Of a stretch of 64,000 nucleotides of DNA, positions 292 through 27,021 are shown one piece after another; the stretch's first letter is position 1, and every line of letters begins with the position of its first letter. The notes below the pieces were generated by a model, which worked only from the letters and a program-made list of their open reading frames with translations, made no database searches and was not told the origin of the DNA. The translations under genes and the position numbers were made by a program. The DNA comes from Chrysomallon squamiferum (lineage: Eukaryota > Animalia > Mollusca). The stretch is taken from assembly GCA_012295275.1 (NCBI GenBank), contig CM022667.1, positions 15,624,001 to 15,688,000 of the forward strand. The letters run 5' to 3'.

Positions 292-330
<39 letters not shown>

Positions 331-4142: not shown

Positions 4143-4425
4143 GTTTGATGTCCACAGAAGATATTCTTTTTAATTTTATATTTCAGTACAGATTACATGG
4201 GGTTAATTTTGATATGTGCAATTTGTTTTAGTTGTTGTTTTATATTTTTATTTATTTATTTTGAATTTATAGGCTTTCAGATATGCATAGGCTTGCAGAT
4301 ATGCACAAATACACACAAACATGTTTTACAGGCATACCTTCGTATTCTAACCATAGAGTCACAACTAGCTTATCAAAATGCTTGAGTCATGATATATGAC
4401 AATGTCCAAAGAAAATATCTTCTGG

Positions 4426-4460
<35 letters not shown>

Positions 4461-4628
4461 CTTGTTAGAATTTAGTTAATCTATAATGCCATTTCTAAAT
4501 CATAATTAATAACAAATAATCATTAATACATTCAGCCTACCTCACCCATGTGTGTTTTTGTGTGTGATTATGTGTGTGTGTTCATGTGTGATTATGTGTG
4601 TATTTGTGTGTGTGATTATGTGTGTGTA

Positions 4629-4661
<33 letters not shown>

Positions 4662-4758
4662 AGTTGGTCAGAACACTGATGCCAAACCCATGTACGTAGA
4701 CTGTATAAAACAAAGTCACACGGTATTAAACTAATATTTATTTATTTATTTATTTCAG

Positions 4759-4909
4759 ATTTACAGTTTGTTCGAGCTGAAGGTTTTGTGTTTTCTCATG
4801 TCGCTGATGAAGGTTTGATGAATGCATGTGCTGGGGAGCTGTTGAGATACCGGAAACAGATAGATGCTGACAACATTCTTGTTTTCACTGATGTGAAGAA
4901 AAAACACAG
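4759..4909 (+). CDS. BtpA/SgcQ-family gene, internal exon
   Basis: tttcag acceptor and gt donor, 151 nt, phase 1 to 2. Reads DLQFVRAEGFVFSHVADEGLMNACAGELLRYRKQIDADNILVFTDVKKKH, with FxR, DEG and DVxxKH motifs. Confidence 0.95.
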
Positions 4910-4919
4910 GTTTTTGTGA

Positions 4920-4929
4920 TCATAATAAC

Positions 4930-4980
<51 letters not shown>

Positions 4981-5143
4981 CATGATGATAATAGTAATAA
5001 TAATAATCATCATAATAATAATAATTATAATTATAATAATAATAATAATAATGTTAATAATCATGACAATAATAGTAATAATAATAACAGTAAGAATAAT
5101 AATTATAACAATAAAAGTAGTAATAGTGGTAGTAGAACAATAA
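4920..5143. repeat. (AAT)n imperfect microsatellite in a BtpA intron
   Basis: Long ataataata run giving a poly-Ile pseudo-ORF. Confidence 0.95.
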
Positions 5144-5382
5144 TAAAATATTATTTTATAAATCAGTTATAATCATGAACATATACTCAACAGACATATG
5201 TACAGTCATGGACACACACACACACACACACAAACATGCATACATACCAGTACATTCACACACAAACAAAATACATACACAAACAAAAATAAATACACTT
5301 CAATTTTGTACAAGCAGTTTTTAATTTCATAAGATCCTGTCACTTATGTAGCTACTGTTTAATATTAAAAGTGATTTTTCAG

Positions 5383-5510
5383 TGCACATTTGATAACACA
5401 AGACGTGAACATTTCTGATACAGCAAAAGCTGCAGAGATGTTTCTCAGTGACGGAGTTATCCTCACAGGTGGCGCCACTGGAGAACCAGCCAACACTGAC
5501 GAGCTCAAAA
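5383..5510 (+). CDS. BtpA/SgcQ-family gene, internal exon
   Basis: ttttcag acceptor and gtaaat donor, 128 nt, phase 2 to 1. Reads SAHLITQDVNISDTAKAAEMFLSDGVILTGGATGEPANTDELK, with the DGxIxTGxxTG motif. Confidence 0.95.
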
Positions 5511-5996
5511 GTAAATTATGTCATTTTTTGATGTTATGTTGAGATATATTTGATAAAAAAAATAAAATAAAAAATAACAACACCAAAAATATAATAATAA
5601 TAATAATAATAATAATAAAATAGAGTTTATAATAATTAAATAATACTGTTATTGAATTCAGTTAATTTAACAAATCTTGCACTTATTAAGTTTCTAAATT
5701 GGTGGAATCAGTGGAAAAGGATAATCCAATAATCCATTTTAAAAGATATTCTTAACACTGCTTGTTGAACTGAAAAGTTTATGGATGCTGATAAACATTC
5801 TTTCTCTGAATTTGTTTGCATTACATTACATCATCAGTCTTTCTATATCTCTCTATCTCTTTTACCTGCATTATTTTTCTCGCTGTCATTAAATATTAAA
5901 TTTTTCAGTTATTATTAAACACGTATAATATTTCGAAACGTAAAAAAGCTATTTTTGTAATTAACATGTATTAATATTTTCACCCCCACCACTCAG

Positions 5997-6218
5997 GTGT
6001 TTTGAACAGTGTAGGAATCCCTGTCCTGATAGGATCGGGAGTCAGCACCGCCAACGTCGTACAGTACAAGAATGCGCACGCCCTCATTGTTGGCTCGCAC
6101 TTCAAAAAGGACGGGAAGTGGTACAACAACATCGACGAAAGAGCGAGTGTCTCGGTTCATGGAACAAGTGAAAAATGTCAGAGCTAATAAAGTCACAGAA
6201 TCTACAATGATCATTTGA
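5997..6218 (+). CDS. BtpA/SgcQ-family gene, terminal coding exon; stop at 6187 as written, or at 6218 if one A at 6138-6140 is removed
   Basis: actcag acceptor, phase 1. Reads SVLNSVGIPVLIGSGVSTANVVQYKNAHALIVGSHFKKDGKWYNNIDE, with PVLIGSG and IVGSxFK motifs. The family-like ERVSRFMEQV ending lies in the +1 frame. Confidence 0.88.
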
Positions 6219-6703
6219 AAAAACAACAATTCAAAAGTGATTTCATTACTTCATGTCACTTCAAAAATTCCACACAGGGAAAATTTAATATTTTTTTTTT
6301 TTTTTTTAGGATTCCACATGGAGAATTTAATACTTAAGGCCATCCTAAATATTTCATGTCTAAAACTTATTACTTTATGTTTTTTTAAAATTCCATGTGG
6401 AGAATTTAATACTTCATATCTTTTAAAAAATTCACGAGAGCATTACTTATTTTGATGTCATGTTTCCAGAGGCAGATAGAAGAATTCTTCCATGTGAGAT
6501 ATTAGTTATTGTAGGATGAGGAAACTTAGCAAACTACCTCCATATCCTGATGGATTTGCTTCTTTATGTATTCCTCCTAATTTAGTGCTAGAAATGCTTT
6601 TTATATACTGTTAATGATATATTCTTTTTTGTTATCATTACATTATACCTCCACCTATTGTTATTATTTGTTTTTAGTAACAGTTTATGAAAGAAGCATG
6701 TTG

Positions 6704-6744
<41 letters not shown>

Positions 6745-9682
6745 AACACACAAATACACATAAACACACATGTTTATACATGAAGGTGTTAATCATGTTT
6801 CATATCTGAATTTTCATTTATAATCAGTTTTAAACTGTTTATAATATTATATTTCAGGAATTTTCTTTCATTCAAAATTTTTGCAATCACTTATATACCG
6901 CCATGTTTTTAAATTTATACAAAATTGTTACCTATTTTCACACATTTATCACATTTTGATAATAAAAATATACTAGCTATTCAAATTGTATTATTTATGT
7001 ATGTGTGCATGTGGTCATGTATGCAGCCAAGAATGAATGTTATGTACTTTCATATTAAAATGCTAACATAATGTTCATATTCATTTATAGTATTAACAAT
7101 TTATCCCAGCATTTTTCAGCGAGTAATATGTTAGTTTCAATAGGTTTGTTATACAAGGGAGATAACTCTTTGAAGCTTCCTTTCACATTCAGTTTTAGAA
7201 TTGTACAAAAAAAAAAAAAATTAATAATAATAATAAAAAATAATGATAATAACAACAAAACAGACATGTGCACACAACAGTAATTGAGGAATTTCTCCAT
7301 AGCACTTGACACTATCTTACATAAATACACTTAACAGATAAAACATTATGTTTGAACATAATTAAATATGGAGTTTTTCCAATATACATAAAAGATACTT
7401 TAAATATAAAAAATTTTGAGTCATATACAAACATATTGTAACATTTTCAGATCAATTTTATATAAATTAAATTTTAAATATTTTATCTAGCTCCAGCAAA
7501 AAAAATAATTATTAATATATACCAGAACTTTGTTTCATGTCCATTCATAGACCTTAGATTTGTATATTTTTGTTAACATTTATCGTTCTTTTAAATATTT
7601 AATTATCAATGCTTACAAATTCTTCGAATAATGCTTTACATACTTTTAAATTGGTTTTTATTATAAAGATCTCAAGAGAAGAGGTTTAATGAGCTATCTG
7701 AAATAAACAAATGATGCCTAATATATGTGCTTTGATTTCTTGATCATCTTCAGTTATACTGGAGCACTGACTAGAACAGGAAATATCCCAACAAAACCAC
7801 TGAAGAGGGTTTATGATGTGACATTATAAGGTCTTAAAATCATATTCTACTAAATTTAATTATTCTCTCTCTGTGTATATGTGGTTATATATCAATGTGT
7901 ATGTGTTTGTATATACATTTTTCAAATATTATATATTCAAATATATAATATTAGGAAAATTTAAGTTTCCACAGTCAAATTCAAAATTACTGTACCATAA
8001 TAATGATTAATACAAGTAAGTAAATAAACAACAAAAACAAACAATATATGTAACATCTTTAATGTAATTTGTTTTAAGCCATCAAAGTATCAGGCAACAT
8101 ACATTCAAACTGCAAATAATTAACATAATTTATGCATAGACCTTGAAGGTCATTGGTTGAAACACTTGGTTTATTTTTAAATGATTATTATGACAACAAA
8201 AATAATAAACAGCAGATTTGCTTTCATTTTTAACTGGTCACTGACCTATGTACTAACTATCAAAGAAAAATGGTTGAAAATAAACACAGGCTTAAACAAC
8301 AACAAAAAAAAGGAAATAGAAAAGAAAGACAAATGAATTTGAAATGTTTTATAACCTAGAAAATTAAAAATTTTAATTAAAAGAATAAGAACATATATAC
8401 ATGAAGAATGTATCTAATAATGGCACACATGCAAAGTTATCCATCATAAGAGGAATTTAATATAAATTTAAAAAAACTGAATGATTAATGATGAAATAAA
8501 CTAAATTTAAGTTCTTTTAACTCTGTTATACCAAAAAAAAAAAAAAAAGAGAAAAGTGTGAAATGAAAACAATTTTGTTATTGCACATGAATCTGAATAA
8601 ATCAGCAACAATATTATTCATGATACAAAAATAAAAAAAGAAAGGAAAATAAAAAAGAAAGATAATGTAAAAAAAAACCAATGAAAGATGAATGAACAGA
8701 ACTCTCAGGAACATTATTTAAACAGTGTAACATAAATTAACAAAATGGGGTTAAAACTTGAACTCTTTTTAATTAAAGTCCAATTAAATTGGAACTTGCA
8801 CATCAAGCTCGACGTACAGACCAGAGTTTGTCTTCCACCCATCTAGAGTTATCTCCCTGTAATAACTAATGAATAGTGACAATTATTTTTTATTATTATT
8901 TTAATGTAATATTGATTGTACATTAAAAAAAAAATATATATATTAACTGCTATTGTAATGAATGACATAAGCAAAATGTACATAATCTAAAAACATAAAA
9001 TATGTAAGAAAGAAATAAAAAATGAGTTGTTAACCATGCTACTGACTGCAGTTATTAAAACAATTAAAAAACAAAAAACAAAAAAAAAAAAAAAAAAAAA
9101 AATTTTTGTAAAGAAAAGAAACAAGAAAAAAAAATATTGTGCAAATCTTACAATAAAAATTACCCCTAAAAAAACAACCTCCATAACAAAGCATTAATAT
9201 TTAATTAAAATAAGCATTATATATATATATACAATTTGTCTTTGAATAAAGTAATGATAAAATTCCTGCACCAAATTATTTATTAGTGATGGAAAAAAAA
9301 AAAAAAAAAAAAAAAAAAACCCATCCATACATCCCTACTTTTATTTTTATTAAGCTGATAATCAATTACGTTTGTAGTATTAGATACAAGTAAACATTTA
9401 AATCTGAATATAAGAAAGAAAAAGAAACCTACACTTCTTTTTAGTGCCCCATGTATGGATTATGTCTGAAGCTATGAAGACATGCAGATGCATATACACA
9501 TATATCAAATATTTGTTGTTTATGTGTGTGCATTTCTGGATTTAAAAGAATATATTGAAGTACGTGATTACACTTGATGTATGAATCAAAGTTCAATACA
9601 TGTGCACATAATTTTATTAATTATAGAACCATTTTCTAAAATCCTGAACCCACTCAATAATTATTTACATTTGAATCTGTAT

Positions 9683-9738
<56 letters not shown>

Positions 9739-9773
9739 TACTATATTTACTTTTATCTTAAAACCACAAGTTT

Positions 9774-9818
<45 letters not shown>

Positions 9819-11067
9819 AAGGAGTAAAATAAAGTAAAAAAGAAGCTAAAAATAACAAAAATGGCACTGAAATCCTTTTACCTCATTAGAGAAAAAAAAA
9901 AGAAAATAAAAGAACAACCAAAAGAATTATATTACAAATATTTGGAATGTAAAAACAATTATCTCCCTTCAGTGCCACCCACTTTACTATTATCCATTCA
10001 AGTAGGCAGAACTCTGAAGTGGATTACAAACACTATTACATGTTCAGTGAGCAAAAAAAAGCATCATTTACGAAACACACAAAATTCGGTTGCTTGTCCA
10101 AATCCAGGAAGAGTACATATTTTTGTATGTACTTTGTACATATACAACAGAAAAATTACATATATAATAAAAATCAAATAAGTTATGTCCTTAAAGATAT
10201 AAAATTTGCTATGAATATTAATGTATGTATAAAGGTACACTGAACTAAAATAAATGTGGATCATGAAAGATTTTTCAAATGTTACATACATTTGGTTTAA
10301 ATTGCTGTTTATATTTCTTATAAACAGAAATTAAAATTTATTTTGTGGATGACATTTATTGCTAGTCATCAAGTTTTCCTCTGTGGTATCAACCAGCTAT
10401 TGTAAAGAAGTACAAAATTCAAAATAATTGGAACAAATATTCCATGATCCCTGCATTTGTTTTAATTCTGTAAAGTCATCTAAATCTAAATCTCTCGTAT
10501 TATTCAGTTTTGAGTTTATGTAAAAGTTCTGTGAGAGTGCCAACCTAAGTAAAGTTTGCACTTCTAAGCAAAGTGACAAAAACAAGAAATTTTTGTACGT
10601 AATTTTCATCAATTTCACATTTTTTATTTATTTATATTTGAAAATAATATGTTTCAAAAAGTTTTTGACAAGAAATAGTAAAGAGGAAAAATAATATAAA
10701 GCCAGTTTTCAAAAAATTACAATTCTTTTATAAATTTGAATACTACAGTTTTATTAAAGATGACATTAAAGGCATTTCTGTCTCTTTTTCACAGGTATAA
10801 AAAAAAATCCAACATATTTTTTACCTGCATTTACATAATATGGTTAAATCTAATAAAATGTGAATAAAAAATTTCAGAACTCTTTTTCAAAAATATTTTT
10901 TCACTTGTTCAATCAAATGTAAATGTTTACAAAAAGAAAAAAAATACCAATAAACAAACATTTTCTTGGCTCATGAATATTTGTTTCACTATCTTTTTTT
11001 AGCAAATGATTCAACTTCAGGGTTTGAAATTAAAAGAAGTTGCTATCTCAATGTCAGTTTTACTGAG

Positions 11068-11182
<115 letters not shown>

Positions 11183-11298
11183 ACAAGAAAGTAATACAGT
11201 TTTAAATTAGATCTTAAAATTCCAGACTGTTTAATGAAACAAAATAGAAATATTAATTAAAACTTTATGTAATTTCAAACCCTGGAACTCTCGTCTAA

Positions 11299-12125
11299 TC
11301 AACATGCTGGAGATTCAATATGGCCGTTCATTGTCAAAGAAGGCTGAGGTGTGTTTTCAACATCACATGGAGAACAATCTGCAGACTTAGAAACATCATT
11401 GTCTGCTGCCAAGCTATTATCCACTGCCAAATTATTACTTACTCCCACACTATTATCCATTGCCAAATTATCAGCAACTACCAAATTATTATCTGCTTCA
11501 GAAATATCCACCAGTTTGTCATATTCGTGAGTGTCACTGTCAGTAATGGGATGAATTAACTTTTCGTAATTTGAGCAATCGAGTGTTTGTCGTTTCTGCA
11601 AATCCTCGCCCAGTATTACCGAATCGTCACTTTGTAAAACCAGCTCCTGCTGCAGAACGACCTCATTCTGCAAACCTTTCTCCTGATTCTGCTGCAGTGA
11701 TGTTGACCCTGCACCTACTGCATCTGCAGTTAAACAGTTGTAATACAAACTGTCAAAGCTCTCTTCAATAACAGCTGAACACTGAACACTGTTCTCGGAT
11801 TCAAGAATTTTCGCAGTTCCACTTAGCACCTCGTGAATATCTTTACTACTAGATTTTTGAATATTTTCCCTAACAACATCGGCGTTATTGTCGTAAATTA
11901 AAGGTGGAGCTGTGGCCTTTTCAAATGAATCTCCTTCTTGCTGTTGCTGTGCAAGTTTTTCCTTGTTGTTGAAAAGGTCAGTGTATCTAGGAGGGTCGTC
12001 TTCGTACTGCTTGCTCATAGCCTTGCAGTCTCGAATCTCTTCGTATTCGGATTCCATTATTCTCGAACCTGCATCATCCACACAGACATTTCCTTCTCTC
12101 TCCATCTCACCTGCTTCGTCTATAT
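11299..12125 (-). CDS. EMI-like receptor, terminal coding exon (acidic cytoplasmic tail with Tyr motifs)
   Basis: ttttcag acceptor inside the 292-aa ORF 11299..12177, phase 1. It is the only long non-repetitive ORF in the window. The six exons sum to 1329 nt, or 442 aa plus stop. Confidence 0.88.
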
Positions 12126-12556
12126 CTGAAAATAAAAGTGAACAAATGAATATTTGCTTAAAGACATCATATGTCATGTTTTTACATTTTGTGTCATACT
12201 TATATATTCTAATACTGAAATAATTATTGTATGGAAATTGGATTTAAAAACATTTGAAAGCTGATATAGGAAAGGAAAAAATTGGCTGTTCTTATACAGT
12301 AGCCATAAAGATATTTCTTTATACAATCCTTCTCACAGACAGAAAGAATATTATAAACTGAGGACATGCTGGAATGTGAAATACCATTAGTGATAACATT
12401 TTTAAATCAATACTCTACTTGACATAATTTCACAAGCTTTCAGATAAAATGGCTTGTTTTGAAAATTACAAGTTCTATTTGTTTATTTATTTTACTGTTT
12501 AATTTAATGAAAACACATGATCAAACAATGTAACGGTTTTTATTTTCAGCTCTCAC

Positions 12557-12606
12557 CCTCGGCAGTTTCATATATATGATTTCTTTCCTCACAGATCATA
12601 GGACAT
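12557..12606 (-). CDS. EMI-like receptor, coding exon 5 (juxtamembrane)
   Basis: tttcag acceptor and gtgaga donor, 50 nt, phase 2 to 1, exactly bridging the phases of exons 4 and 6. Reads (R)CPMICEERNHIYETAE. Confidence 0.8.
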
Positions 12607-13057
12607 CTGAAATGGAAACAAGACTAAAATTACTGATGGACTAATTTTCTGTTATCTACTGTTACAAACGTTAGTCTGCTTTGTATCATGGCCTGCTTAA
12701 AATATCATTTCCTAATGTATTCTCGGATGTCATTATGCCTGCCATTAAACATAGACATATATAGCACTGTCTTGTTCACTAGTCATACAGCGATGGTTAG
12801 ATATTGTCCAGTGTGCAAATCAAAGATCATTAGTCTGATTACACCTGAAGCTGTCACTTTACTGAAGGGCAGCAATCTGACCAATACATTTTGATTTACA
12901 AATTAAAAGATACAAGTCAAACTGAATGGTTTTTCTTTTATATGTTATTATATAAACAGTTCTGATTTCAGTGGGTATGGAGAATTATACACACAGGCAG
13001 ACAGAATGACAAACACACACACATACATATTCATGGTTTATGATTCTTGGACATTTT

Positions 13058-13097
<40 letters not shown>

Positions 13098-13120
13098 TAC
13101 ATACATACGTAAGTGAACGT

Positions 13121-13154
<34 letters not shown>

Positions 13155-14223
13155 CAAGAGAGAATAAGGGAGAATGAGGAAAGGAAAGAAAGAAGAGAGA
13201 AAGACAGAAAAAAAACCCACCACACACACACTCAGAATCAGTTAGCCATTTTGCAGTAACATTTAATACGACACCAATCTTTTCTAAACGACTAAGCTCT
13301 CTTCCGAAACTGATGCACTTATTTGAAAAATAAAAGCTACATCCACTAATTAGAAGAGACTTTTCTATCTGAGGAGTTATCTGGACTGGACTGACAACCA
13401 CTAGAGACGCGAGACTCTGTGACAGGGTCTCCTGCTTCTGTCTGTGTAGAACTCGACAATCGACAAATCCAAAACGACTTGTCAATTAGGTGCATTAAGC
13501 ATGGGCCACTTGTCCCAGCACTGAGCCACCTGCATTTGAAAAAGATGCATCCAGCGATGACAGCTAAGAACAGCATCACAGAACCTGACTCAGATACAGA
13601 TACAGATATTGAGAAAGAGAAAAGAAGAAAGAGAGAGAGAGAGAGAAAAAAATCTAAATCAATCAAATAATAATTTGTCATGAAGGGTCTGGCCAGTTTT
13701 ACTGTCTTTGATCAATCAATTGGTGAATCAATTCTCAGGTCTGCGGTGCTGTGTTGCTCGTGCTGCAGATACACACAGTTTGTGACCTGAATTAAGTGAT
13801 CATTTTAACAACAATGTTGCTCGGGAATCTAGAAAATGAATATCAGCAAACTGAATTAACCTCCAGTAGTGTTGGAAATAAAATTAAGCCGAGTCTATTC
13901 GTTGACTTTGAGAGGAATACTAATGCCGCTTGTGAGAGTTTTCCAAGTCGTAGACGGTTTTATTGCTGTTACTGTTGTCTGAACAAATCCTGCAGCTTCC
14001 AGAAGGCTAATTTGAGAATGTCCACTCCAGCGACAAGGTTGTTAAAGTTGACTTAAGGCCGTGATGAAATATTTCAGTGTTTCATGTGCATTTGGAAGGA
14101 TTTATTAATCACACACACACACACACACACACAAATACAAACACATTTAAGTTTTTCAAGGTGCTTATTGAAGCCTTTAATGATGACATGTGCAAATGTG
14201 TGTGTGTGTGTGTGTATTTAAAA

Positions 14224-14312
14224 TGTTCAGTGTGCTGTTTATTGCAAGGCATTATGATATTATATCTGTATGTTTTAATCTGCACTATGTTTGTGTAGTG
14301 CATATGAATGTG

Positions 14313-14343
<31 letters not shown>

Positions 14344-14548
14344 ATCATGATGATATAAACAAAATTCTAGGTAAAAGGATGTTACCGTAGACGTCTCCTT
14401 CTGTAACACACGCTGATGGCGATGATGGTGATTATGAAAATAGCAGCTGCAGTTGATCCAAGGACGATGGTGAGGAATTTCTCATCTGGCGGATTAGAAT
14501 CTGAAGATTTAATATCATAAAGCCATGCAATAAACAGCACACTGAACA
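14224..14548. repeat. 44-nt inverted repeat (arms 14224-14267 and 14505-14548) flanking the TM exon
   Basis: tgttcagtgtgctgtttattgcaaggcattatgatattatatct matches the reverse complement of the second arm at 41/44 positions. Confidence 0.92.
14386..14500 (-). CDS. EMI-like receptor, coding exon 4 (transmembrane)
   Basis: cttcag acceptor and gtaaca donor, 115 nt, phase 1 to 2. Reads (D)SNPPDEKFLTIVLGSTAAAIFIITIIAISVCYRRRRL, a hydrophobic helix followed by a poly-Arg stop-transfer. Confidence 0.88.
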
Positions 14549-14943
14549 GTACAGGCATAAAAACTAAATATATCATCTAGCACTGTTTAATTCAAAAATA
14601 AAAATAGCACATAAAACACAAACCTGAAATTTATTTACTTACTTATTTTTTTTATAAATATATGACCAGTTTTATAATAAAGCACATGAAAACAAAATAT
14701 TAAAGATATATAAATAAATAAATAAATAAAACAAAAACAACAACAGTCAACAAAATACCACCAAAAAACCCCAATAAAAACAAGAAGGGCCATTTTTATA
14801 TCTAAACAGTTTCACAAAAACCACCTACCATATACAGTGCTTAGTTTAAAATTACACATTAAATATAAAGTCTAGAAAGTGTATTTATATATCTATCAGA
14901 TCTATTTCTCTATATCTAGCTCTCGCCCTCTCTATTTGTCTGA

Positions 14944-14974
<31 letters not shown>

Positions 14975-16986
14975 TATTATTTATATATATGTAAAGGCTG
15001 GACTCAAAGTTATGAGTCATACAAAATAAAAGGAGAACACAAAACACTAAAAACAAGACATTTCATAAACAGAACTACACATGACAATGTTACAGAATAA
15101 AACACAAAATACAATAAAAATGTTCGAATAAGAAACTGTAAATAACACATTTAAAAGCTCAGGGCACAAGAATTGACACTGTACAGAAAAGTAAGATTTC
15201 ACTTGAAGTATCAAAAAGTTTTAGAAACATCAAACAGAAAGATCAAAGTTTAAACAGTGTCTAAATAAAAACTAAAAAAAACCCCCCCACAAAAAACACA
15301 AGATAAAAAAACATTTCACCCAAAAATATCTCACAATACAAAAAACAGTAATTTACAAACATCAAACAAATAATGAACACACAATATCTGTAGAAAAACA
15401 TCTTCCACAACAAATGCACTGACAGTGTTATCAACCATTCATTTACTAAAAAAATTAAACATGAAGATTAGCTGCTTGTTTCATAAGAAGCTGTAAAGCC
15501 TAAAAGTTCAGTAAAAATTTTCTTTTTAAATTTTGTTCTATAAAATTTGTTTTAATTAAATAATGGTAAATAACCCGTACAAAGCAAAAATTTAAAAAAA
15601 AAAGAAAAAAAGTTCAAAATAAATTTAATTTTTTGTTAGTTTACTTTTAAAAAGTACATTTCAAAATGTGATTTATTGTCATATATAATTAATTTTGTTA
15701 GAATCCATAAAGGAATGACTGCATTTTTTTTTACAAGATCCTATAAACAATTTTTGTTCCACCATAACTGATGTTTGTAACCTTTCTGCAGCTTTGTCAA
15801 GCATATGAACAATTCTCAAGTTATTTCAAATCTTTATGTTTCCTAGCTTTTCACTTACATGACTTTCTGTTGTCAAAAAATAATGAATAAAGTTTTACAG
15901 ATAACAAAATAAAAACCACCATCAAAATTAGATTCAGCAAAAATCTCATTTATAAAAATTGTCAAAGTCAAGCAGAAAAACCAATAATACACAATCGATA
16001 CCAATATCTGTTTTCCAGTGACTCCAGTTCTGACACAATCAAGTCTATGAGTGATGAGGAGATAACTCTAAAGCCATGCACTAGATCAGAGTAGTCTGTC
16101 ATGATCTGCCATTTTAATAAACTGATAAGGGAGCCAACAATGGATTGGGAATTGACAATTATTTTTTTTTTTTTTTTTTTTTTTTTTTTGGACAAAATTG
16201 AACTAGGGAAGGAAATTTATTCCAAACAAGAAACAAATCAGAAAGAATGAGAGATAACTACACGAAATATTGACTATCTGTGATTACGTCAATCATAATT
16301 ATCATGTAACAGAATTTTACACCACTCTTAAAGCACTGGGAATTAATTCAATAAAAGAAACAGGTTCAGGAATGTGGTAGCTCAGATTATTTCTGATAAA
16401 AAAACAAATGACTTTTTTTTTCTTCCCTCTCCTGTTTTCATGTGCCAAGAAGAATTTGTTTTAATTCCATTTCAAAAAGAACATATCTATAAAACGTTTT
16501 CAAGTCTGTGTCATCATAACTTAGAAAAACTTTATGTGCTATTCTTTTTAACCTATGCTAAAGTTTTATCACTCTCTCTCTCTGGAATTAGTACTTTAAA
16601 TCCTGCCTTATAAAATTAAAATCTTCCATAGTAAATAAGAACAATGATTTTAGATTAAATTCAAAAAATAAATCATGTCAATGAATGTTACTTTATATAG
16701 AAAATAATTAAAACCATAATTTTAAACTTTGTTTCCCTAATTTTTAAAAATATTTTTCTTTGAAGTTTCTTTTTCTCTTTTATTTTTTAAAAATTTGAAT
16801 AACAAAAATCTTAAATTTAATCATATTTCATCAATGAATTTTAATTTAACAAGTATGACATTAAAAGCTAAAGGACTATCAAGCAGAATTAAAAAAATAA
16901 AAATAAAAAAATTAAAAAATCAATGACTTTTTTGACTTTTTCTAAAACTGTAAAAACATAAAACTTTAAAAACATATTTCACTCAC

Positions 16987-17075
16987 CATTTTCACAATTC
17001 TTGTCGCCAGGACAACAAACTTTTTTCTGTCTGTAGGTGACAATTTCAGTAGGTGGAACAGTGATGTAATCTAAC
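16987..17075 (-). CDS. EMI-like receptor, coding exon 3 (CCPG motif)
   Basis: ttcacag acceptor and gtgagt donor, 89 nt, phase 2 to 1. Reads (K)LDYITVPPTEIVTYRQKKVCCPGDKNCEN; YR...CCPG...C is the usual EMI domain ending. Confidence 0.87.
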
Positions 17076-20000
17076 CTGTGAAAATATAAACATAAATCAA
17101 TAATGCTGTATAACAGAAAAATTGTACATTAACAAATTTTTGCCATTATTTTATACCATCATAACATTAAATGCAAAATTAAAATTAAAATTAAAAAAAT
17201 ATATATATATTTTGCATTATCTAGGAATGATAATAAAAAGGAATATTTGTACATTTTTTTTTTGTTTTAATGAAGCCAGTTATTATTATTACATTGTGGG
17301 TTAAAGATATTTTTGGAAAGTGGATGGTTTTTTTTTTTTTTTTTGATGGTTTTATTAACATTAGTAAAGCGTATTAAATATGTGTAAAGTTTTATTTTCA
17401 GTCTCCTTTAAATGAATGAATGTCTTGTTTTACAGATCTGTAAAATGAACTATTTAGATGGCACTTTCCTAGTTAACTAATGGCTCCTGACAAAATCACA
17501 AGACTAGTAGTTTTGCTGCAGCCCCACAGATGGCAGCACTGCTGGGTGATACAATGACTGGGAGTGTCCTGGATGGTGCCTGCATCCTGCAGCTTAGTGA
17601 GAAGTTTCTTTTAAGGCTGTGGGACAAATCTGCTGTGAGCAGTTAATGTTAAGAAGATTTTAGTGGATATCTGTCTATCACAAGGAATGGGTTAACGTAA
17701 ACAATTATTTTAATCATTTATTTATTTATTATGTAATAAAGCATTATAAACACAATATAATACAATATAATAAATTAACTTGTAACATGGTTATAACAAG
17801 TTTTAAGTTATGCTTGCAAAATGATCCATTTGCATTATTTTTTGAGTTTAATTTTAAAACATACAAGTTTTGTTATTAAAAGATATTTGTTTAAAATGTA
17901 GTCAAAATTTAATGTCAACATATAGGTTATATCTGCTGGACCATTTAAATAAATGGATTTTTTTATCTGCCCAAGTTTAAATCTTATTTATTTATTTATT
18001 TATTTATGAATTAAGATCCAATCTGATTAAGTCATCTTGTAATATTAAAATATTCTTGACATAAAAAGAAAAAAATTCAACAAACATTTTCTTCTTTTTT
18101 CATAAATGCTCATATAGGCAGAACATCCAAATTTATTGATCTTATTTCCCTCATCATTTATTTTTCACTATCAATGTGGTTTTTTTTTTTTTGGCTAACT
18201 ACAGCCATTAACCCTTTTGATCTCCAGACATCAGAATTAACATCAAACTTCACTTCCACACCTGCTGCAGCCAAATTAATCCATTTATCTGCTGCAGCCA
18301 AAGCCCATTATCTTGAACTCTTGTACAGCCAAACTGCATTAATAAGAAGATAGAGCAACAAGATAATTAGCCAAACTCCTCAGTTTAGCATGCGTACATC
18401 ATTTCCGACACCCCTCTGACCCAGCAAGGGAACTCTTTCCTAACACAGGGAACAATATTCTACCGAGCAAAGCTCACTTCAAGTCCCTGGTGTTATGAAT
18501 ATGTATGGAATCAAAGAAAGAAAGTTGATAAATATTGATTCATGTAACTCAAATGAACATTCCTCCTTATAAATATAAAAATTAACAAAGGCGAAATGGG
18601 TCCCGAGAGTAAAAAAGATAATTTGCTGTCGGACGCCATGGACTGTGTGCTGTCAGAAAATAAATTGCCATAACCAAAAGGCCAAATGCCCAAATGACAA
18701 GCTTGTGACAAAAACAATTATATTTGGATCTTGTTGTGTTTCACAGAGGTGCATGATGGGAATGCAGCCAGTGTTTTCTGAATTCTGGACCTACTCAGGG
18801 GAGAGTATAATTTACAGCGAAAAGCTTTATGATGTAGACTGGTAATATAATAACAGCTTCTCTTTGTGGTGTTTAAAAAAGGAATTCCAACCTCAAAGTT
18901 CTACACATCTAATTCATTAGTTAATACACACATTTCATTGGTATGGCTTTTGAACCAGCCAGTTTCTATATCCATAATTGAGTTTTGAAAAAAATCTAAA
19001 AAACCCACCTAATAGTAAGTAAACTAAGATGATGATACACAATATACCCTCTTTCTTCTTTTCATTTCTGATTGCACTTTTATTAATAACTGATATAATT
19101 TCATCCCTTAAGTTACACCCACCAACTAAAGGCATGCTCTGATCAGATTCTGGATCTGTCATATTAATAAAACAAATTTAATTTCATGTTGATCATTTTT
19201 ATTCTGGTTTGTATCTAATCCAGTGGTTAAAGCTCGTTTTTCATTTATTTACAGTAATCAGCTACGATGGCAGTTATACCCAGTTTTAAAACGTATATTT
19301 TACTGAATGAAGAACACCCATGTTTAACCTGCTGCATTGTGTTTACTTACATTTTACACCATTCACAACAACAGTTTCACCATTTTTCTGAAATCTTTTT
19401 TTTATCACAAAATTCCATAATGGCCCCATGACATTTTGAAAACTGATGATTTGCATATGTTAATACTTTGATTCTAACTTCTAGTTGTTTTGTGAAAACA
19501 GAACATCAAAATACTGGGATATACTGTAAAATATGTTTGTGTGAGTGTGCATGTATGTATTTGTGTGTGTACGTGTTTGTGTATAATAATCATACTGAAC
19601 AGAATGTAGAATGTTAATGAAGAGTTAATGTGATGTGGGGCTGTTTTAAAATGTGTCTGTATCCTGTGAAGTGTGAATGTTAAAATAGTTATCAGTTTAA
19701 CTTGTCACAATTTGAGAGAATCTCAAAACAGTTTAAATATCCAATTAACATATTTTTATTTCATTGTTACAATTGTTATTACTGTTATATTTCATCACAG
19801 ATAATTTATTTTACTCTTTTACTAAATTATTTATTTGTTAACTTTTTTATAATTTATTATCAACAACATTATTGTTAGCAAGGCAGGTTTTTTTTTTTTT
19901 TTTTTGAATTTTTTAATGAACACTACCAATTCCTGTTATAAAATGTGTTTTCCATTTACTTAATTAAAATTATATTCCTGTTTCTTATTATATTAAAGTT

Positions 20001-20816
20001 TCTGACTGCTGTGCCTTTTTAGTGCGTTTAATAAACAATATGCTTTGATCATAAACATTTATTTAATATAATGGTACAGATGCAACATCTGTCACATACA
20101 CATACATTAGATATATATCAAATATTAATTTTGAAATCTCAAGACATTAATAATGTTTATTCCATTGTGCCTTTATTTTGTATCAATTATATTTAATAAC
20201 TGAAAAGATTTTTTTGTAAACAAATAAAAGCTTTGGATTTCAGTTATTATTAATTCAGAAAGCATGGAGTCTTTTCTCAGTCTGGTGCTGACTTCATCAG
20301 TGTTTGGTGGAAAGATGAATGCTGAAGTGTGACAGTTAATTTCTGCAAAATGAGCGCATGTTCCCTTGCATGTGCGTAATCAAACACGTCCTAGGAATCA
20401 GCCAACAGAACAAAAATTGAACTGAGCCAAGTGATAAAAACTTAAAACAAAACAGCAGCCAGCAATATTTGGAAATCTGTGTTATGTAACTCTGACTGTT
20501 GTGCCTTAATGGTTCAAATAATCTATTAAGCAGAACAATGCTATATGTATTTTACTAATGAATAAATAAATATGTGACCTGTTGAAAAAAAATTGTCATT
20601 TTTGTTTGACAAATGGGAAAAATGCTATTTTTGTTTAAGATTTCTAAATTTTGCATTCATGGAAAAACTGGTGCCCCTTTATTACTAATGCTGAACTTTA
20701 TTACAGATTGTTTATTTTATTTATTTGCTAATTTATTTATTTACTCATTTTATTTTATTTTACCACATCAAAAGAAGTCATTGTTATTCAACTATTGCAA
20801 GTAAAAATGTAATTAC

Positions 20817-20930
20817 TTGTATTTTGTTCCACAGTCAACTTTTGTGAGCCACGACCAGGATTTGTCCCAGTGAGAACAGGCAGCTGGAACTCTACGTAGC
20901 ACCTGAAGTCTTTTAGCAGGATTTTCAACT
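20817..20930 (-). CDS. EMI-like receptor, coding exon 2
   Basis: attcag acceptor and gtaatt donor, 114 nt, phase 2 to 2. Reads (P)VENPAKRLQVLRRVPAACSHWDKSWSWLTKVDCGTKY. Confidence 0.82.
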
Positions 20931-21268
20931 CTGAATTCAAAACAAGGATATAATAATAATAATAATAATAATAATAGCTAGAAGAAGAAGATGATGATGA
21001 CAAGAAGAATATGAAAATAATGATAAAACAAAGGAATGATGTTGATAATAAATATTAAAATAAAAATAAAAACATTAATAATAATAAGAAAAAACAGCAA
21101 TAACGAGGAAGATGATAACGACAAATTAAAAAGTTTATTAATATTAAAAATAATCATAATTCAATCTTAAAATTTTAGTACATTTGAAGTTGTCTCTTAA
21201 TACAAAATATTAAAATATTTAATCTTGATTTCTGAGTGGAAACAAAATTTTAAATTTAACAGACAAAA

Positions 21269-21435
21269 CAGTGGTGTAACATGGGATGGGCCATAGGCGT
21301 GGTTGCCCCAGGTGCTAAATTCTTAGGACAACTACTGGACTAGCAGTAGGGGCCTAGGTATGGCTAAAGGATTAGTTGATGCAATACACTTGTCTTGCCC
21401 CCCCCCAGGTGCTGGCAACCAGCACTAAGCCTCTG
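21269..21435. mobile_element. Degraded non-autonomous DNA transposon (hAT/MITE-like)
   Basis: GC-rich insert in an AT-rich intron. The ends cagtggtgtaac and actaagcctctg resemble decayed CAGTGGCGTAGC-type terminal inverted repeats, with internal ttgccc..caggtgct repeated. No clear target-site duplication. Confidence 0.4.
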
Positions 21436-21467
21436 CAATCAATTAATCATTTCTAAGTTACACTTAC

Positions 21468-21601
21468 GGGACTGCCTGGGTGCAGAAGGAAAGAGCTGCA
21501 GCAGAAAAGAAACCAAACTCCTGGAAGAGAATCCACTGAAGAAGGATCCATGCTCCTATATGCCACTCCATGAACATTGCCTTGAATTTGGTGACAAGCA
21601 T
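21468..21601 (-). CDS. EMI-like-domain type I membrane protein, coding exon 1 (signal peptide); the exon itself begins at 21636
   Basis: tttgtag acceptor ending at 21637, in-frame TAG TAA before the ATG, gtaagt donor, phase 2. Reads MLVTKFKAMFMEWHIGAWILLQWILFQEFGFFSAAALSFCTQAV, a hydrophobic leader with a small-residue cleavage region. Confidence 0.8.
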
Positions 21602-22683
21602 CAATTACTACATCAACATCGCTTGACTAAACACACCTACAAATAAAAACACAAGACTAAATTAAATAATGGTAGCCTGGTAAATAGTAAGACAAAATTT
21701 TCTGAGAGTGAGCGAGAAACCAACTTGTAAGAAATAAAAAACGTTTAATGTAGGTTTATTTGATTGCACCTGCCACTGAACATATTCTTCTACTCTGAAT
21801 AGCTAGTCTACAAATCTTATCTAAGGATGTAAAGGTCTAAGTAAAACTATACTAGCACTTTCTCCATTAAGAAATTGTGCTTTTTAATTTTTTTTTTTTT
21901 TTTTAGAAATTATAAATTATAATAAATTGTAAAAGATAAAAAAAAAAAAAAAAAAAAAAAATTAAAATTCATTAAATTAATTAATTTATTATTATTATTA
22001 TTATTATTAAAGGAACTGTTTCTCTGGGTTCTGATATCTATTTGGGATTACAGTTTCGCGTTTATGAATTATGGACTAAATCGGGGGTCACCACCATTTT
22101 GAACACGAGGTACCGAGTCATACGAAGGGCTATCATTTTGTTACACCATTCTGAAATAACACATTTGTTCAGTTTATCTTTAGTTATTATTAATGATACC
22201 CATCTCTGTGATCACGGTAATGATTTCTCGCAGTGTTGTCCCATTTTAGGAACCGGCCTGCGGTCGACTCGTGTGGTTCTTGGGGGATACCTGTTTCCCG
22301 CGGTTACCGTGTTGGTGATCCCTTGACTAAATTTTTCGTATGTTTAAACTTGCTTTATTTATCAGCTTCTCTGGCAGAAATAACTTTTTAAAAATGTTCA
22401 GCTCTGTCATAAAAACAGAAAACAAAACAAAACAGAAGGACAGGCACCTAAATTTTCCCGCCAAGCCAACACCAGGCAAATTATATCTTGGACATGTGAC
22501 TTGTGTTTTAAGTGCGCGGGCTAGTTGATAATCTATCGTCAAAGATAATTATTACCTATGCATCGATCAACAACAACTGATCATATGCAATAATTATTCA
22601 TATCTCTGGCATTTACTTTGGTTATTTTAACAAATTCTACTTTTTTTTCCACGTGAAGTATGTGATTTTGAAAAACGACTTAC

Positions 22684-22810
22684 CGTAAAAATTTGCAGCA
22701 AGAAACGCTAATCAGCTAATGCAATTATCGTTCAAGAGACGACGTTTTCTATTGGTTGGTTCTCTATACGTAATCCATGCTTAGTCATCATATCAGTCTT
22801 TTTGGGGCGC
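22684..22810 (-). promoter_or_regulatory. Probable promoter and non-coding first exon of the EMI-like receptor gene
   Basis: Strong minus-strand donor CG|gtaagt at 22683 and CCAAT on the minus strand at 22751-22755. The site sits at the edge of the CpG-retaining domain. Confidence 0.45.
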
Positions 22811-25266
22811 CTTCTTATTACGTTATATATAAAAATAGATTTTAATGTCTTTTTTAATTTTTTTTGTTTTCATAATTTTTGTTTTTTTAAAATTATTATT
22901 ATTTATTAACATCGCTTAATACATCAAGAGCTCTTTCAACTACGCCACAATTCGTGCATCGTCGGAATAGACTACGTTTGATCTAATTCGTTATTTTTTT
23001 CTTTATCTTTATTTTTCTTTCTGGTTTCTTTTCTTCTTTCTTTATTTCTTTCTTTATTTATTTATTTGGTGTTTTTTTTCTTTTTTTTTTTATTATTTAT
23101 TTTTTATGTTTTGCTCGCGCACACACACACACACACGCAAGTATTCCATGATTATGTTTCCTAAGTTAAACTCGCTACATTTTGGCTACGTTTACTTCAG
23201 AGTTTTGCCACCAGCGAACGTACTTAATATGCCCGTATTGCATAACTCCTTTAAATGCTAAATCAGATACTGGGCTATCTTTCCGCTGGGCAGCTAAATT
23301 CAGTGGTTACAAATAAGTGTCAGTTATACGTTTATCAACTCTCTTAGTCTGGCCTTTGTTTATCGGATGGCGCCGAATCTGAAACGTGTAAAATGGCTTA
23401 GAAAGTCCGCATTACATAAACTTTGAATATACATTTAAGAACATGTTCATCTAAAGGCAGCAAACAAAAAAAAAACAAAAAAACAACAACAACAACAACA
23501 AAACAACAACAACAAAAAACAACAAACAAAGAAAAAAAAACAAAAAAACAAGCATAGTTGTATTTATTTTACTTCCATCTCTTGTTTCGCTCATTTTTAA
23601 CATTCACTTTAATCTCTCATCCGAGTAATCTAATAAAATTGGTCCCAGGATGCCAGTTTCGTAAACTTTCGACATTCGCAGACTTGCACGGAGATGAACG
23701 AAATTAACCGATCAATAACTTGCTAGATGTTAATCAAATAATTGAGTTTTCGTTCGGAAACAAAACAACAAATTATTCACATTATCGTGAAATTTATGAC
23801 AAGTAAGTATGGTTTTGTGGTGATGGAATTGAAAACGTCACTGAGGAAAGAAAACCTCCAAAGCATCAAATATTTGCATTTATTCCACCATACGATGGTG
23901 AATTAACACGCAAGAACATTATTGACAAATTATGGTCAAAGAAATGATATTTCGCAGCTATCCTCAAGGATTTGAAAATTAGCTTCATGCGAAATCTCGC
24001 GAGACGTTCCAAAACGGATAACGAGATGAAAAATTCGACGCGCACGCCATATTTGACGACTTGGTTATCTCCCCTGAAACCGCCATTTAGTCTTGAAATG
24101 TTGAAAGACGTTCGGACTTGTCCCTCGGGGCAGTCCCGGCATAAAACTGAAAGTTAATTTCAGTTTAGAACGAAGAATGCTGACCATTTGGGCATAAGAT
24201 CTGTCAGACCTTTTTAACGCGTTTTCGTTGAAAAATCGATTTTCTTGCATAGTTTGCGTGCTCGACTCCGACTTCGGCAGTTGAAATTGAATTTAAGAGA
24301 GGAACAGCTGCACTGATTGCTAAAAAGTGTAAGCGTGAGTTTACTTCAGACAAGGGTAATTATGTGCTAGGACAACAAGACAGTTATGTAGAATAACTTT
24401 CCTTCGAACTAGGTAGCGATATAATTATGTAGAGTGTTTGTATAATTTGTGTGTGTTTTTCAGAGAGAGACAGAGAGAACACTTCAGATGAATAGACTTT
24501 TGGATAATAATGAACACTAAAAGTAAATATATTTTAGTAACAAAAAGAACATGACAACGAACAACAAAAGGGAGGGTTAGCCATGTAAATCTAAATTAAT
24601 ATAAAATCCAGTACAGAAATAAAATGAAAATTCTAGCATTCTTAAAAGCTAACATCGTCTGACAGATGTGTAGCATCTTATCAACGAATATACGTCACAC
24701 AACGCGCGCTATATGAAGCCCGCTGTTCGGCGCCATGTTTTCACTTTGATATCCATCGCTCATTAGCAAAATAAACTTCAAACAGCCATGTTCTCTAAAC
24801 TCGTTTCGTCGCACAAGATTAGGAAAGCGATGTTCAGATGTCGTAGTTAATTCTCTGTATTGCTAACAACGAGGTTTCAGAACTATCCACTGGCTTCGCC
24901 TTTTCCTCGCAGACACGAATTTCGTTCTAAACTATTTATGATTTACCGATACACTAATCAGAAGTGAAATGTTTCAAACGTAAGAGAATTATGGCACTTT
25001 TGTGGTTGCCCGAAACGGTCGTAATAAAAAGCTAACCGATAAAATATTTAATAATTATAATAATAATAATAATAAAATGAAATAAATATTTAAATACAAA
25101 TAAGTTAAAATAAGTTAAAATGAGAGAGAGAGAGAGAGAGATTAACCTACAAAATAAGTAGTTTTGACATCTATGTTTGCTACATTTCCGTCGTTATTTA
25201 TTTGTCATCAATGTGTTGTTGTTTTTTTAAATTATCTACATCCTCAGTATGTGTAAAATACTGTGA

Positions 25267-25297
<31 letters not shown>

Positions 25298-25573
25298 GTT
25301 GTTTGTAAATAATGAAATTTTTTAGCCTTGAAAGCAAGTGAGAAGTAAATAAATAGTAGTATGCAAATCTATAATTTTATAATCACAGAAAAGACGGTTA
25401 GTCTGACCAGGAAACCATCTAAACTTAGATTGCAATGAAACGGTTACTTGACATTATCACATAAAGCTCTTAATATAATAAGGAGATAGAAGAAACTGTC
25501 CTCATTACAGTCTGTGAAAAATTAAGTGCTGTCGCTGACAACTGCATATATGTATATAGGTGTTTGTTGTTGT

Positions 25574-25631
25574 TGTTCAATGTATATCTGTGACTGCTGA
25601 TGCATATTGTTACATGGGCTAGAAAAACACA

Positions 25632-25696
<65 letters not shown>

Positions 25697-25741
25697 CGCT
25701 TGTAACAATATGCATCAGCAGTCATAGATATACAATGAACA
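25574..25741. repeat. 48-nt inverted repeat (25574-25621 and 25694-25741) enclosing a (GT)n tract
   Basis: The arms are reverse-complementary at 44/48 positions. Confidence 0.9.
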
Positions 25742-27021
25742 CTGAACAACAACAACAACAACAAAAATCAGTGTCTGGATAAAAAAAAAAAAAAAAAAAA
25801 GCCACCGGGTACATTAACTAAATTGAAGACAACAATGACATTAAAATGTCGACGTTGATGTCGTTTTTCTTTAATGGCACCATCGAGGCAGGTGCGCTAA
25901 GCAACAATAACGATAACTGAGAGTGACAGCTCCGAAGCAAAATCTGCTCAAGAAGAAGAAAAAAGAAGTAAAACGTGGAAAATATCGTCTTCTAACCATT
26001 AGTGCTGATCTGCATAATTATCTGCATACGCTGTGGAAATAATCCGATAAAATGCAGCTTCTAGAAACTCGTCACCTTCAGATGAGATGTGCAAACACGA
26101 ACATTTCGCGAAGGAAATTATTAAATTTTGATAGCCTCGGACATGTTCGTAAGGTTTCGGAGAGTTTCGTTAACGAATTTTTCCGAAGTTATTCGAAAAC
26201 GAACGTATTTTGAATTGCAATTTGTATATTAACATCTACGATCCCAGTTATAGGAACAAGATTACTGAAGGTTAAACGATCAAATAGTCTCACACACACA
26301 CACACACACAAAAACACATACACATATAAATAAAAGCCACAAGCAAGAGCTTATAGACATTTAAAAACTAGCTCTTGTTAATACACTGTTTATAATTATC
26401 AGCAGTGTAACAGTAACATCACGTGTGTGGAACAGTCAATCATTTAGCTAACTACGCCCCGATCTGAACATTCCCCAATCTGTAAAAATTTTTACCATTA
26501 TTATAATTTATTTTTTAATATCCTATTTAATAGCTTTGCTCAGTACATCTCGACTGTTTTCCTGATGTTTATATTCAGACATTTCCGAAGGCGCCAAGTT
26601 TATAATGGGAAGCGATTTGTTTTTGAAGTAAAACGTCTCTGCGAAATTTTATGTATTGTGGCTTTAGGCAAAATGCAGAAAATTAAAAAGAAAGAAAGAA
26701 AAGAAATGATGAACGAATAACAAACAGATAATAATTGTGAACAGTAAGAAGATAATGGAAGTATGATAACGATGGTTGATACTGTTGTTACTATTAACAT
26801 TTTTGTTGTTATAGTTGTATTGCTATTATTATTGTTGTTTTGTGCTATTATTATTATTATTATTATTTGAAATTTTATGTTTATATACAATATATTGTTA
26901 TAATTATATTAAATATTTTCATATGCCGTAGACTACGGTATTGAGAAAAGAAAAAAAAAAAAAAAAAAAAATAATAATAAATCAGTTAAAATAAAATGCC
27001 AATATATCTGAAGCTTTATCT

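What the first reader, a model, noticed from the sequence alone, without database searches (positions are those of the whole stretch)
14224..14548. Inverted repeat that could loop out the TM exon and switch the receptor to a secreted EMI protein
Seen: 44-nt arms (41/44 complementary) lie in the two introns flanking the 115-nt TM exon. The upstream arm covers positions -48 to -5 of the acceptor, the branch-point and pyrimidine region. Joining exon 3 to exon 5 reads GAA AAT G|AT GTC CTA TGA, a clean 115-aa signal peptide plus EMI protein. Its stop is 39 nt before the last exon junction. Known: intronic pairing around exons promotes skipping or back-splicing, and stops under about 50 nt from the last junction escape EJC-type NMD in vertebrates. 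Inference: an RNA-structure switch between a signalling receptor and a soluble decoy or opsonin, potentially tuned by ADAR. A neutral foldback duplication is the null explanation.
Basis: partly seen in the sequence, partly recalled or inferred. Interest (0 to 1): 0.82.

Follow-up and report, generated by a model that had tools for sequence, protein, structure and literature searches.

The report
Mirror copy of a splice site
A snail receptor gene carries a short mirror-image copy of the splice signal in front of its membrane-anchor exon; the copy is predicted to fold back over that signal, but the few transcripts seen keep the exon, so it is likely a DNA copying accident rather than a switch to a secreted protein.

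Summary
The inverted repeat is real and far beyond chance (41/44; z about -7). It is longer than reported: 60 nt, crossing the acceptor AG and 12 exon bases. It is a local inverted copy of the TM exon's own 3' splice site, in a gastropod single-pass receptor conserved across snails and bivalves.

Pairing is predicted to bury the acceptor region (opening cost 29.6 versus 5-13 kcal/mol for the other four acceptors). No evidence for a secreted switch was found:
- Two shallow RNA contigs join exon 3 to the TM exon; none shown skips it; neither shows A-to-G.
- Orthologue isoforms vary only stalk length.
- The early stop and NMD escape follow from frame and a 50-nt exon.
- No mismatch is G-U in the transcript.
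- An equally strong, exon-free foldback lies 11 kb away.

Best reading: a tolerated template-switch foldback (0.55). Notable rival (0.2): it masked ancestral upstream acceptors, because the arm's inner part resembles the stalk codons that a relative splices in. EMI is a loose label. The scan had not noted this on other DNA.

The parts
14489..14548 (-). Upstream arm: intron 3 positions -48 to -1 plus TM-exon bases +1 to +12; the source of the copy
14505..14548 (-). 44-nt core of the upstream arm (41/44; outer 23 nt perfect)
14224..14283 (-). Downstream arm in intron 4, 103-162 nt past the donor: inverted copy of the acceptor region; AG decayed; has G at +1 and T at +4
14386..14500 (-). Exon 4 (115 nt, phase 1 to 2): stalk, TM helix and basic stop-transfer
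   Evidence: both junctions in RNA contigs
14502..14516 (-). Likely intronised stalk codons: reads D-I-K-S-S in exon frame, 3 nt from the G-L-K-S-T that Gigantopelta isoform X1 includes
   Evidence: 16 of 1614 CAG-ending 15-mers score as well; inference
14485..14487 (-). In-frame internal AG (+15), matching the junction of Patella isoform X3; use here not seen
14313..14340 (.). (TG)n microsatellite in the loop, between donor and downstream arm; a complementary tract lies just outside the arm near 14197-14214 (crossing pairing)
21468..21601 (-). First coding exon (hydrophobic leader; ATG 21601 or 21577)
   Evidence: sequence and orthologues
20817..20930 (-). Exon 2, first half of the 6-Cys EMI-like ectodomain
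16987..17075 (-). Exon 3, second half of the ectodomain
   Evidence: its 3' end is the loose end joined to exon 4 in X2 and X3
12557..12606 (-). Exon 5 (50 nt, phase 2 to 1)
   Evidence: exon 4-5 joint in X3
11299..12125 (-). Exon 6, cytoplasmic tail with conserved tyrosine motifs
   Evidence: RNA cover
25564..25755 (.). Control: second local foldback (44/48 core), 72-nt loop mostly (TG)n with no exon

Best explanation
This is a 60-nt inverted copy of the TM exon's own 3' splice site, placed about 100 nt past the exon's donor, likely made by a replication template switch next to a (TG)n tract and likely tolerated rather than used as a switch. The stem is predicted to be stable, but only once about 150 nt beyond the donor has been transcribed, which would leave time to define the exon, and the AG itself sits in a mismatch bulge. 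The TM exon is spliced in (shown), so the gene makes a membrane receptor. Any skipped RNA would be a minor, frameshifted by-product (inferred). Shown: the repeat, its extent and exon inclusion. Predicted: pairing and its timing. Inferred: origin and neutrality.
For: (1) Inclusion: exon 3-4 join in X2 and X3, exon 4-5 join in X3, and no exon 3-5 join among the rows shown. (2) The copy runs into coding sequence and ends there, as a copied block would. (3) 0 of 9 mismatches are G-U in the pre-mRNA, while 4 of 9 would be on the opposite strand; the antisense strand folds better, -135 versus -119 kcal/mol. 0 of 4 transitions has p = 0.06, so this is weak. (4) A second foldback of equal score (76 versus 75), also beside (TG)n, encloses no exon; these are the only 2 above background in 64 kb. 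(5) 31 of 32 relatives spanning the CC motif keep the TM helix right after it. RefSeq isoforms of Gigantopelta, Haliotis and Patella differ only by 2-12 stalk residues. (6) The -48 to -5 region stays 0.43-0.44 unpaired until 131 nt past the donor and falls to 0.09 at 162 nt; the AG stays 0.68 unpaired. (7) Template switching creates and homogenises inverted repeats in eukaryotes (PMC5453318 and PMC8604942 passages; PMC8794818 abstract).
Against: (1) Opening -30 to +3 costs 29.6 kcal/mol against 5.4-13.0 for the other four acceptors, so some effect on splicing is plausible. (2) Mismatches cluster at the splice site, 6 of 16 versus 3 of 44, with permutation p = 0.027, which uniform decay does not predict. 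(3) A foldback would touch one of this gene's acceptors with rough probability 0.013 (anywhere in the window) to 0.078 (within the gene). (4) This acceptor has the weakest pyrimidine tract of the five (0.56 versus 0.69-0.81), and weak acceptors are the ones prone to loop-out skipping (PMC13019027 abstract). (6) Two genome-derived models lack the TM (P0039, P0051). (7) No orthologous intron DNA was obtained.
Confidence: 0.55

Rival explanations
1. Self-made antisense mask that rewired acceptor choice. The ancestor had tandem in-frame acceptors giving long and short stalks. The foldback buried the upstream acceptor(s), 15-21 exon bases became intron, and changes around the surviving AG freed it, fixing the short-stalk receptor.
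For: Stalk-length isoforms at this junction exist in 3 genera. Bases -16 to -2 still read D-I-K-S-S, 3 nt from Gigantopelta G-L-K-S-T; 16 of 1614 control 15-mers do as well. No AG remains at -15 or -21. The copy has G at +1 and T at +4, fitting the Gly-Leu/Phe of most orthologues, where the exon has A and C; the copy is closer than the exon in 12 of 14 related proteins, but this rests on two bases. Mismatch clustering p = 0.027. Both RNA contigs use the 14500 acceptor.
Against: The order of events (acceptor loss versus foldback) is unknown. Arm homogenisation alone can give uneven identity (PMC8604942 passages).
Confidence: 0.2
2. One reading: regulated loop-out of the TM exon gives a stable mRNA for a secreted 107-115-aa ectodomain (decoy or opsonin), tuned by ADAR or elongation rate.
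For: Strong predicted stem over a weak acceptor. The ectodomain is complete in exons 1-3 and gains only three residues. An A-C mismatch sits at exon +1. Loop-out skipping and soluble receptor isoforms are known (PMC7404189 and PMC13019027 passages).
Against: No skip join or editing seen. A search for proteins of 30-214 aa found 1 hit among 3 candidates, a fragment ending at exon 2. The two TM-less models are genome-derived and also lack or truncate the N-terminus, and the same species has a TM-bearing model for P0039. The stem is predicted closed at 10, 20 and 37 C alike. No ligand or immune role is known from any call.
Confidence: 0.12
3. Skipping occurs but serves or amounts to decay: the frameshifted mRNA with a long 3' UTR is degraded, so the stem lowers receptor level. 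A 115-nt circle or the in-frame double skip of exons 4 and 5 are minor variants.
For: Extra UTR of at least 866 nt. Long-3'UTR NMD is described in animals (PMC6173133 passages). Decay would hide the product. Exons 4+5 total 165 nt and stay in frame.
Against: No direct evidence. Back-splicing needs the same acceptor that the stem hides (inference). No circular or double-skip joint appeared.
Confidence: 0.1

Closest known systems
Local template-switch inverted repeats (four-point model; PMC5453318 passages, PMC8794818 abstract, PMC8604942 passages)
   Same: Reverse-complement copy of nearby unique sequence, able to form a long stem; arms can be homogenised later.
   Different: Here the arm is 60 nt with a 205-nt spacer, longer than the yeast cases read (arms 7-16 bp, spacer up to 70). 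No ancestral allele was available to map the switch points.
Loop-out exon skipping by inverted Alu pairs, e.g. TBXT (PMC13019027 abstract and passages; PMC7404189 passages)
   Same: Complementary sequence on both sides of an exon with a weak 3' splice site.
   Different: The arms are unique sequence, not a transposon pair. One arm is the splice signal itself, so any effect would be direct masking. Skipping is not shown.
Soluble receptor isoforms by TM-exon skipping (FcuR, CEACAM1: search listing only)
   Same: Single TM exon whose loss would release the ectodomain.
   Different: No such transcript seen here, and none among RefSeq isoforms of the orthologues examined.
EMI-domain proteins (EMILIN/multimerin; CED-1/MEGF10/Draper placement partly recalled; PMC3342094 passages)
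   Same: N-terminal cysteine-rich domain of about 75-80 aa, split over two exons, with CCPG near its end; three orthologues are named 'EMI domain-containing' by UniRef.
   Different: Six cysteines, shorter final spacing, no Pfam hit, no EGF repeats; the domain is followed directly by the TM helix.

Membership tests
Functional loop-out / splice-site-masking RNA structure | Stable complementary arms around or over the exon's signals | tested here: met
   (prediction only)
Functional loop-out / splice-site-masking RNA structure | Skipped isoform exists | tested here: inconclusive
   inclusion in 2 of 3 RNA runs, no skip shown, depth 2.6-4, contigs only
Functional loop-out / splice-site-masking RNA structure | Conservation and covariation of the arms in orthologous introns | not testable with these tools
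   No genome held; metagenome scans empty; in run X5 the upstream arm is present but the downstream arm was skipped as repeat-bearing
Functional loop-out / splice-site-masking RNA structure | Substitutions keep pairing on the transcribed strand (G-U bias) | tested here: not met
   0 of 9 mismatches G-U on sense, 4 of 9 on antisense; p = 0.06, weak
Functional loop-out / splice-site-masking RNA structure | Disrupting and compensatory mutations change splicing | not testable with these tools
   needs a minigene
ADAR-edited editing-complementary sequence | A-to-G differences in the paired region | tested here: inconclusive
   None in the two contigs covering exon +1 to +12; intronic arms not covered by RNA
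Template-switch inverted repeat | Insert is the reverse complement of nearby sequence | tested here: met
Template-switch inverted repeat | Ancestral allele lacking the arm, explained by four switch points | not testable with these tools
   no outgroup DNA
EMI domain (strict EMILIN type) | Seven cysteines | tested here: not met
   six invariant Cys in A4; definition from PMC3342094 passages
EMI domain (strict EMILIN type) | WRCCPG(Y/F)xGxxC motif | tested here: not met
   CCPG is present, but the last Cys follows after 5 residues, not 7
EMI domain (broad) | Profile match | tested here: inconclusive
   No Pfam EMI hit in 19 full proteins or 11 ectodomains, but UniRef names three orthologues EMI-containing; Atlas top hit STAB2 fragment 0.82, a lead only
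EMI domain (broad) | Fold | tested here: inconclusive
   Model pLDDT 69, pTM 0.27; no structural match
EMI domain (broad) | N-terminal position after a leader | tested here: met
   signal peptide judged from hydrophobic helix, no dedicated predictor run

The most novel reading that the evidence does not exclude
One template-switch mutation copied an exon's own acceptor into the next intron and so created a built-in antisense mask. This silenced the long-stalk acceptors used by related snails, turned stalk codons into intron, drove the surviving AG to escape by mismatches, and now yields a minority secreted ectodomain when transcription outruns exon definition: a splice switch born in a single step without any transposon.
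Probability: 0.2. Interest if true: 0.6.

Novelty: new member of a known kind. Interest (0 to 1): 0.27.

Why it matters
If neutral, it shows only that a strong stem over a 3' splice site can be tolerated, which is ordinary. If the rival holds, it is a datable natural case of local template switching, rather than transposon pairs, creating splice-site-masking structure and reshaping an exon boundary. One minigene and a few sister genomes would test that. Separately, the host gene belongs to a family of single-pass receptors found across gastropods and bivalves, with conserved stalk-length splicing; one paper search found no description of it.

Tried and rejected
- Whole-genome survey of foldbacks: no genome held, so the background comes from this window only.
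- Orthologous DNA: TM-exon pattern in metagenome contigs, 0 matches; alignment query, 165 pattern hits, 0 confirmed; arm core in prokaryote genomes, 0.
- First tile scan cut through the repeat and missed it; it was redone with a finer step.
- Conservation from run X5: 1 difference in 271 nt over exon 4 and the upstream arm, versus 54 in 1848 nt and 8 in 337 nt further down the gene, but 0 substitutions in 151 nt of nearby intron 3. This is read as patchy haplotype distance, not constraint.
- RNA thermometer: rejected; the stem is predicted closed at 10-37 C.
- Separate stalk microexon in intron 3: three in-frame candidates, none convincing; one 12-nt candidate at 15866-15855 begins E-S like the Gigantopelta insert.
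- Shared element behind both foldbacks: both carry the same 10-mer near their outer ends (4 matches, 0.16 expected; two are the repeat itself, one is in exon 6), with no similarity beyond it; unexplained.
- Rfam: 0 matches in 11000-27000.
- PDB sequence searches: nothing meaningful. Fold searches with the whole model hit only the TM helix.
- P0039 and P0051 as TM-less isoforms: set aside as incomplete genome models, but not disproved.
- Earlier scan notes: none on this feature or protein.

Full report
OBSERVATION. The arms 14548-14505 and 14224-14267 agree at 41 of 44 bases, and the upstream arm spans -48 to -5 of the exon 4 acceptor. It is longer than reported: 60 nt at 85%, running through the AG and 12 exon bases. 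Its 23-nt outer core occurs twice in the window and never twice in 100 shuffles. The region folds at z = -6.6 or -8.3. Its alignment score of 75 exceeds all 3000 distant control pairs, whose maximum is 52. The downstream arm is therefore an inverted copy of the acceptor region, not chance complementarity.

THE GENE. Six coding exons on the minus strand give an open frame of 434 aa, or 442 aa from the upstream ATG. The best named relative is a Gigantopelta aegis protein (53% identity over the tail). Relatives occur in Haliotis, Lottia, Patella, Biomphalaria, Lymnaea, Bradybaena, Pomacea, Nucella, Batillaria, Ylistrum and Mercenaria, so the host is most likely a gastropod. The layout is a leader, a six-cysteine ectodomain, a short stalk, one TM helix and a disordered tail with invariant tyrosines, including Y-x-E-I in 19 of 19 aligned. 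'EMI' is loose. UniRef uses the name for three orthologues, and CCPG and the two-exon split fit. But the strict definition asks for seven cysteines and a longer final motif (PMC3342094 passages), Pfam gave no EMI hit in 19 proteins or 11 ectodomains, and the ectodomain model was too weak to match a fold. 'Opsonin' or 'decoy' rests on that label alone.

IS THE EXON SKIPPED? Five runs hold exon 6; four were laid, three of them RNA. X2 and X3 each have a contig joining the end of exon 3 to 14500, and X3 continues through exon 4 into exon 5; X1 does not cover exon 4. No exon 3-5 or circular joint is among the rows shown, and neither contig has the T-to-C change that A-to-I editing would give. This is shallow evidence: depth 2.6-4, contigs drop minor forms, 18 loose ends and 21 differences were not displayed, and exon 3 was visible only as a loose end. 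Among relatives, 31 of 32 proteins spanning the CC motif have the TM helix right after it (59 proteins examined; one spurious tail match dropped). The exception, P0039, is a Batillaria genome model that also lacks the first half of the domain, while another model from that species has the TM. P0051, an unnamed 88-aa clam-type genome model, also ends without a TM and cannot be judged. A search for short forms found one fragment among 3 candidates. Where RefSeq lists protein isoforms of different length (Gigantopelta, Haliotis, Patella), all differences lie in the stalk at the exon 3/4 junction: 7, 5, and 2 or 12 residues. RefSeq may omit NMD-prone forms (my knowledge), so this is moderate evidence.

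THE 'CLEAN' PRODUCT. Exon 4 is 115 nt, so skipping shifts the frame. A stop within four codons occurs in 214 of 876 off-frame starts in this gene, and within 16 codons in 559 of 852. Exon 5 is 50 nt, so any stop in it is under 50 nt from the next junction. The skipped mRNA would gain at least 866 nt of 3' UTR. [quoted passage not shown] Stability of such an mRNA is thus open, and the 39-nt distance is not evidence of design.

WOULD THE STEM MATTER? Possibly. Opening -30 to +3 costs 29.6 kcal/mol, against 5.4-13.0 for the other four acceptors. The acceptor also has the weakest pyrimidine tract of the five, and weak acceptors are the ones prone to loop-out skipping by inverted Alus (PMC13019027 abstract and passages; mechanism review PMC7404189 passages). 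But in prefix folds the region closes only after 146-162 nt past the donor, and the AG stays 0.68 unpaired. Exon definition could finish first (inference).

SIGNS OF ORIGIN. None of nine mismatches is G-U in the transcript, four would be on the other strand, and that strand folds better. Selection for an RNA helix should lean the other way, though p is only 0.06. The window holds exactly two local foldbacks above background. The other (25564-25755, 44 of 48) has a loop of mostly (TG)n and no exon. The finding's repeat also has (TG)n tracts on both sides of its downstream arm. Template switching is a documented source of such repeats and of later arm homogenisation (PMC5453318 passages; PMC8604942 passages; PMC8794818 abstract and outline). 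Near-perfect local inverted copies reach 0.3-0.4% of loci in frog and octopus (PMC5625713 passages). Against pure neutrality: the position over an acceptor has a rough prior of 0.013-0.078 per foldback, and mismatches cluster at the splice site (6 of 16 versus 3 of 44, permutation p = 0.027).

A DIFFERENT LEAD. The inner third of the upstream arm looks like former exon. Bases -16 to -2 read D-I-K-S-S in frame, three changes from the G-L-K-S-T that Gigantopelta X1 includes; 16 of 1614 CAG-ending 15-mers do as well. No AG survives at -15 or -21. The intronic copy has G at +1 and T at +4, which fit the Gly-Leu/Phe of most orthologues, while the exon has A and C; the copy is nearer in 12 of 14 related proteins, but this rests on two bases. 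This suggests the copy predates those two exon changes, which both weaken pairing. One reading is that the foldback masked ancestral upstream acceptors and the surviving one escaped. Without orthologous DNA the order of events cannot be set, and the extra stalk could be a microexon.

VERDICT. Real feature, known kind. Tolerated template-switch foldback 0.55; acceptor-masking that fixed a short stalk 0.2; regulated secreted switch 0.12; skip-to-decay or circle 0.1. No earlier scan note covers it. One search for a description of the family (EMI domain + mollusc + transmembrane) listed three unrelated papers, and one for soluble TM-exon isoforms listed none on this gene; both were seen as listings only, so absence from print is not established. 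No supplements were read; orthologue splicing data could lie in genome-paper supplements.

Noticed in passing
window 11299-21601 (-): The host gene belongs to a gastropod and bivalve family of single-pass receptors with one 6-Cys EMI-like domain and invariant tail tyrosines (Y-x-E-I; resemblance to an SH2-binding motif is recalled). No convincing Pfam or PDB match; stalk-length isoforms recur in three genera.
   Followed up: partly
window 25564-25755: Second foldback (44/48 core) around a (TG)n loop, upstream of the gene; carries the same 10-mer as the finding's arms near its outer end.
   Followed up: partly
window 14563-14501 (-): An in-frame AG at -63 would add 21 stop-free, hydrophobic codons through the whole upstream arm; use not seen.
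   Followed up: partly
window 14500-12557 (-): Skipping exons 4 and 5 together (165 nt) keeps the frame and would give a TM-less protein with the full tail.
   Followed up: partly
window 15866-15855 (-): Microexon-like stretch in intron 3: pyrimidine tract and AG, then a perfect GTAAGT after 8 nt or a GTGA after 12 nt.
   Followed up: no
window 12126-12556: Run X5 differs from the window by many substitutions and indels in intron 5, far more than near exon 4: a divergent haplotype or population.
   Followed up: no
window about 13660-14100: No cover in run X5; possibly a polymorphic insertion, though the tool warns that holes prove nothing.
   Followed up: no
window 31673-32537: Tandem array of a 36-nt unit, about 24 copies, open in frames on both strands.
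   Followed up: no
window 3956-4231 (-) and 5993-6250 (-): Open frames that read as the reverse strand or frame of exons of a neighbouring gene; not identified.
   Followed up: no
window about 22680-22800 (-): CCAAT-like boxes followed by a GTAAGT donor near 22684: a likely non-coding first exon of the receptor gene.
   Followed up: no
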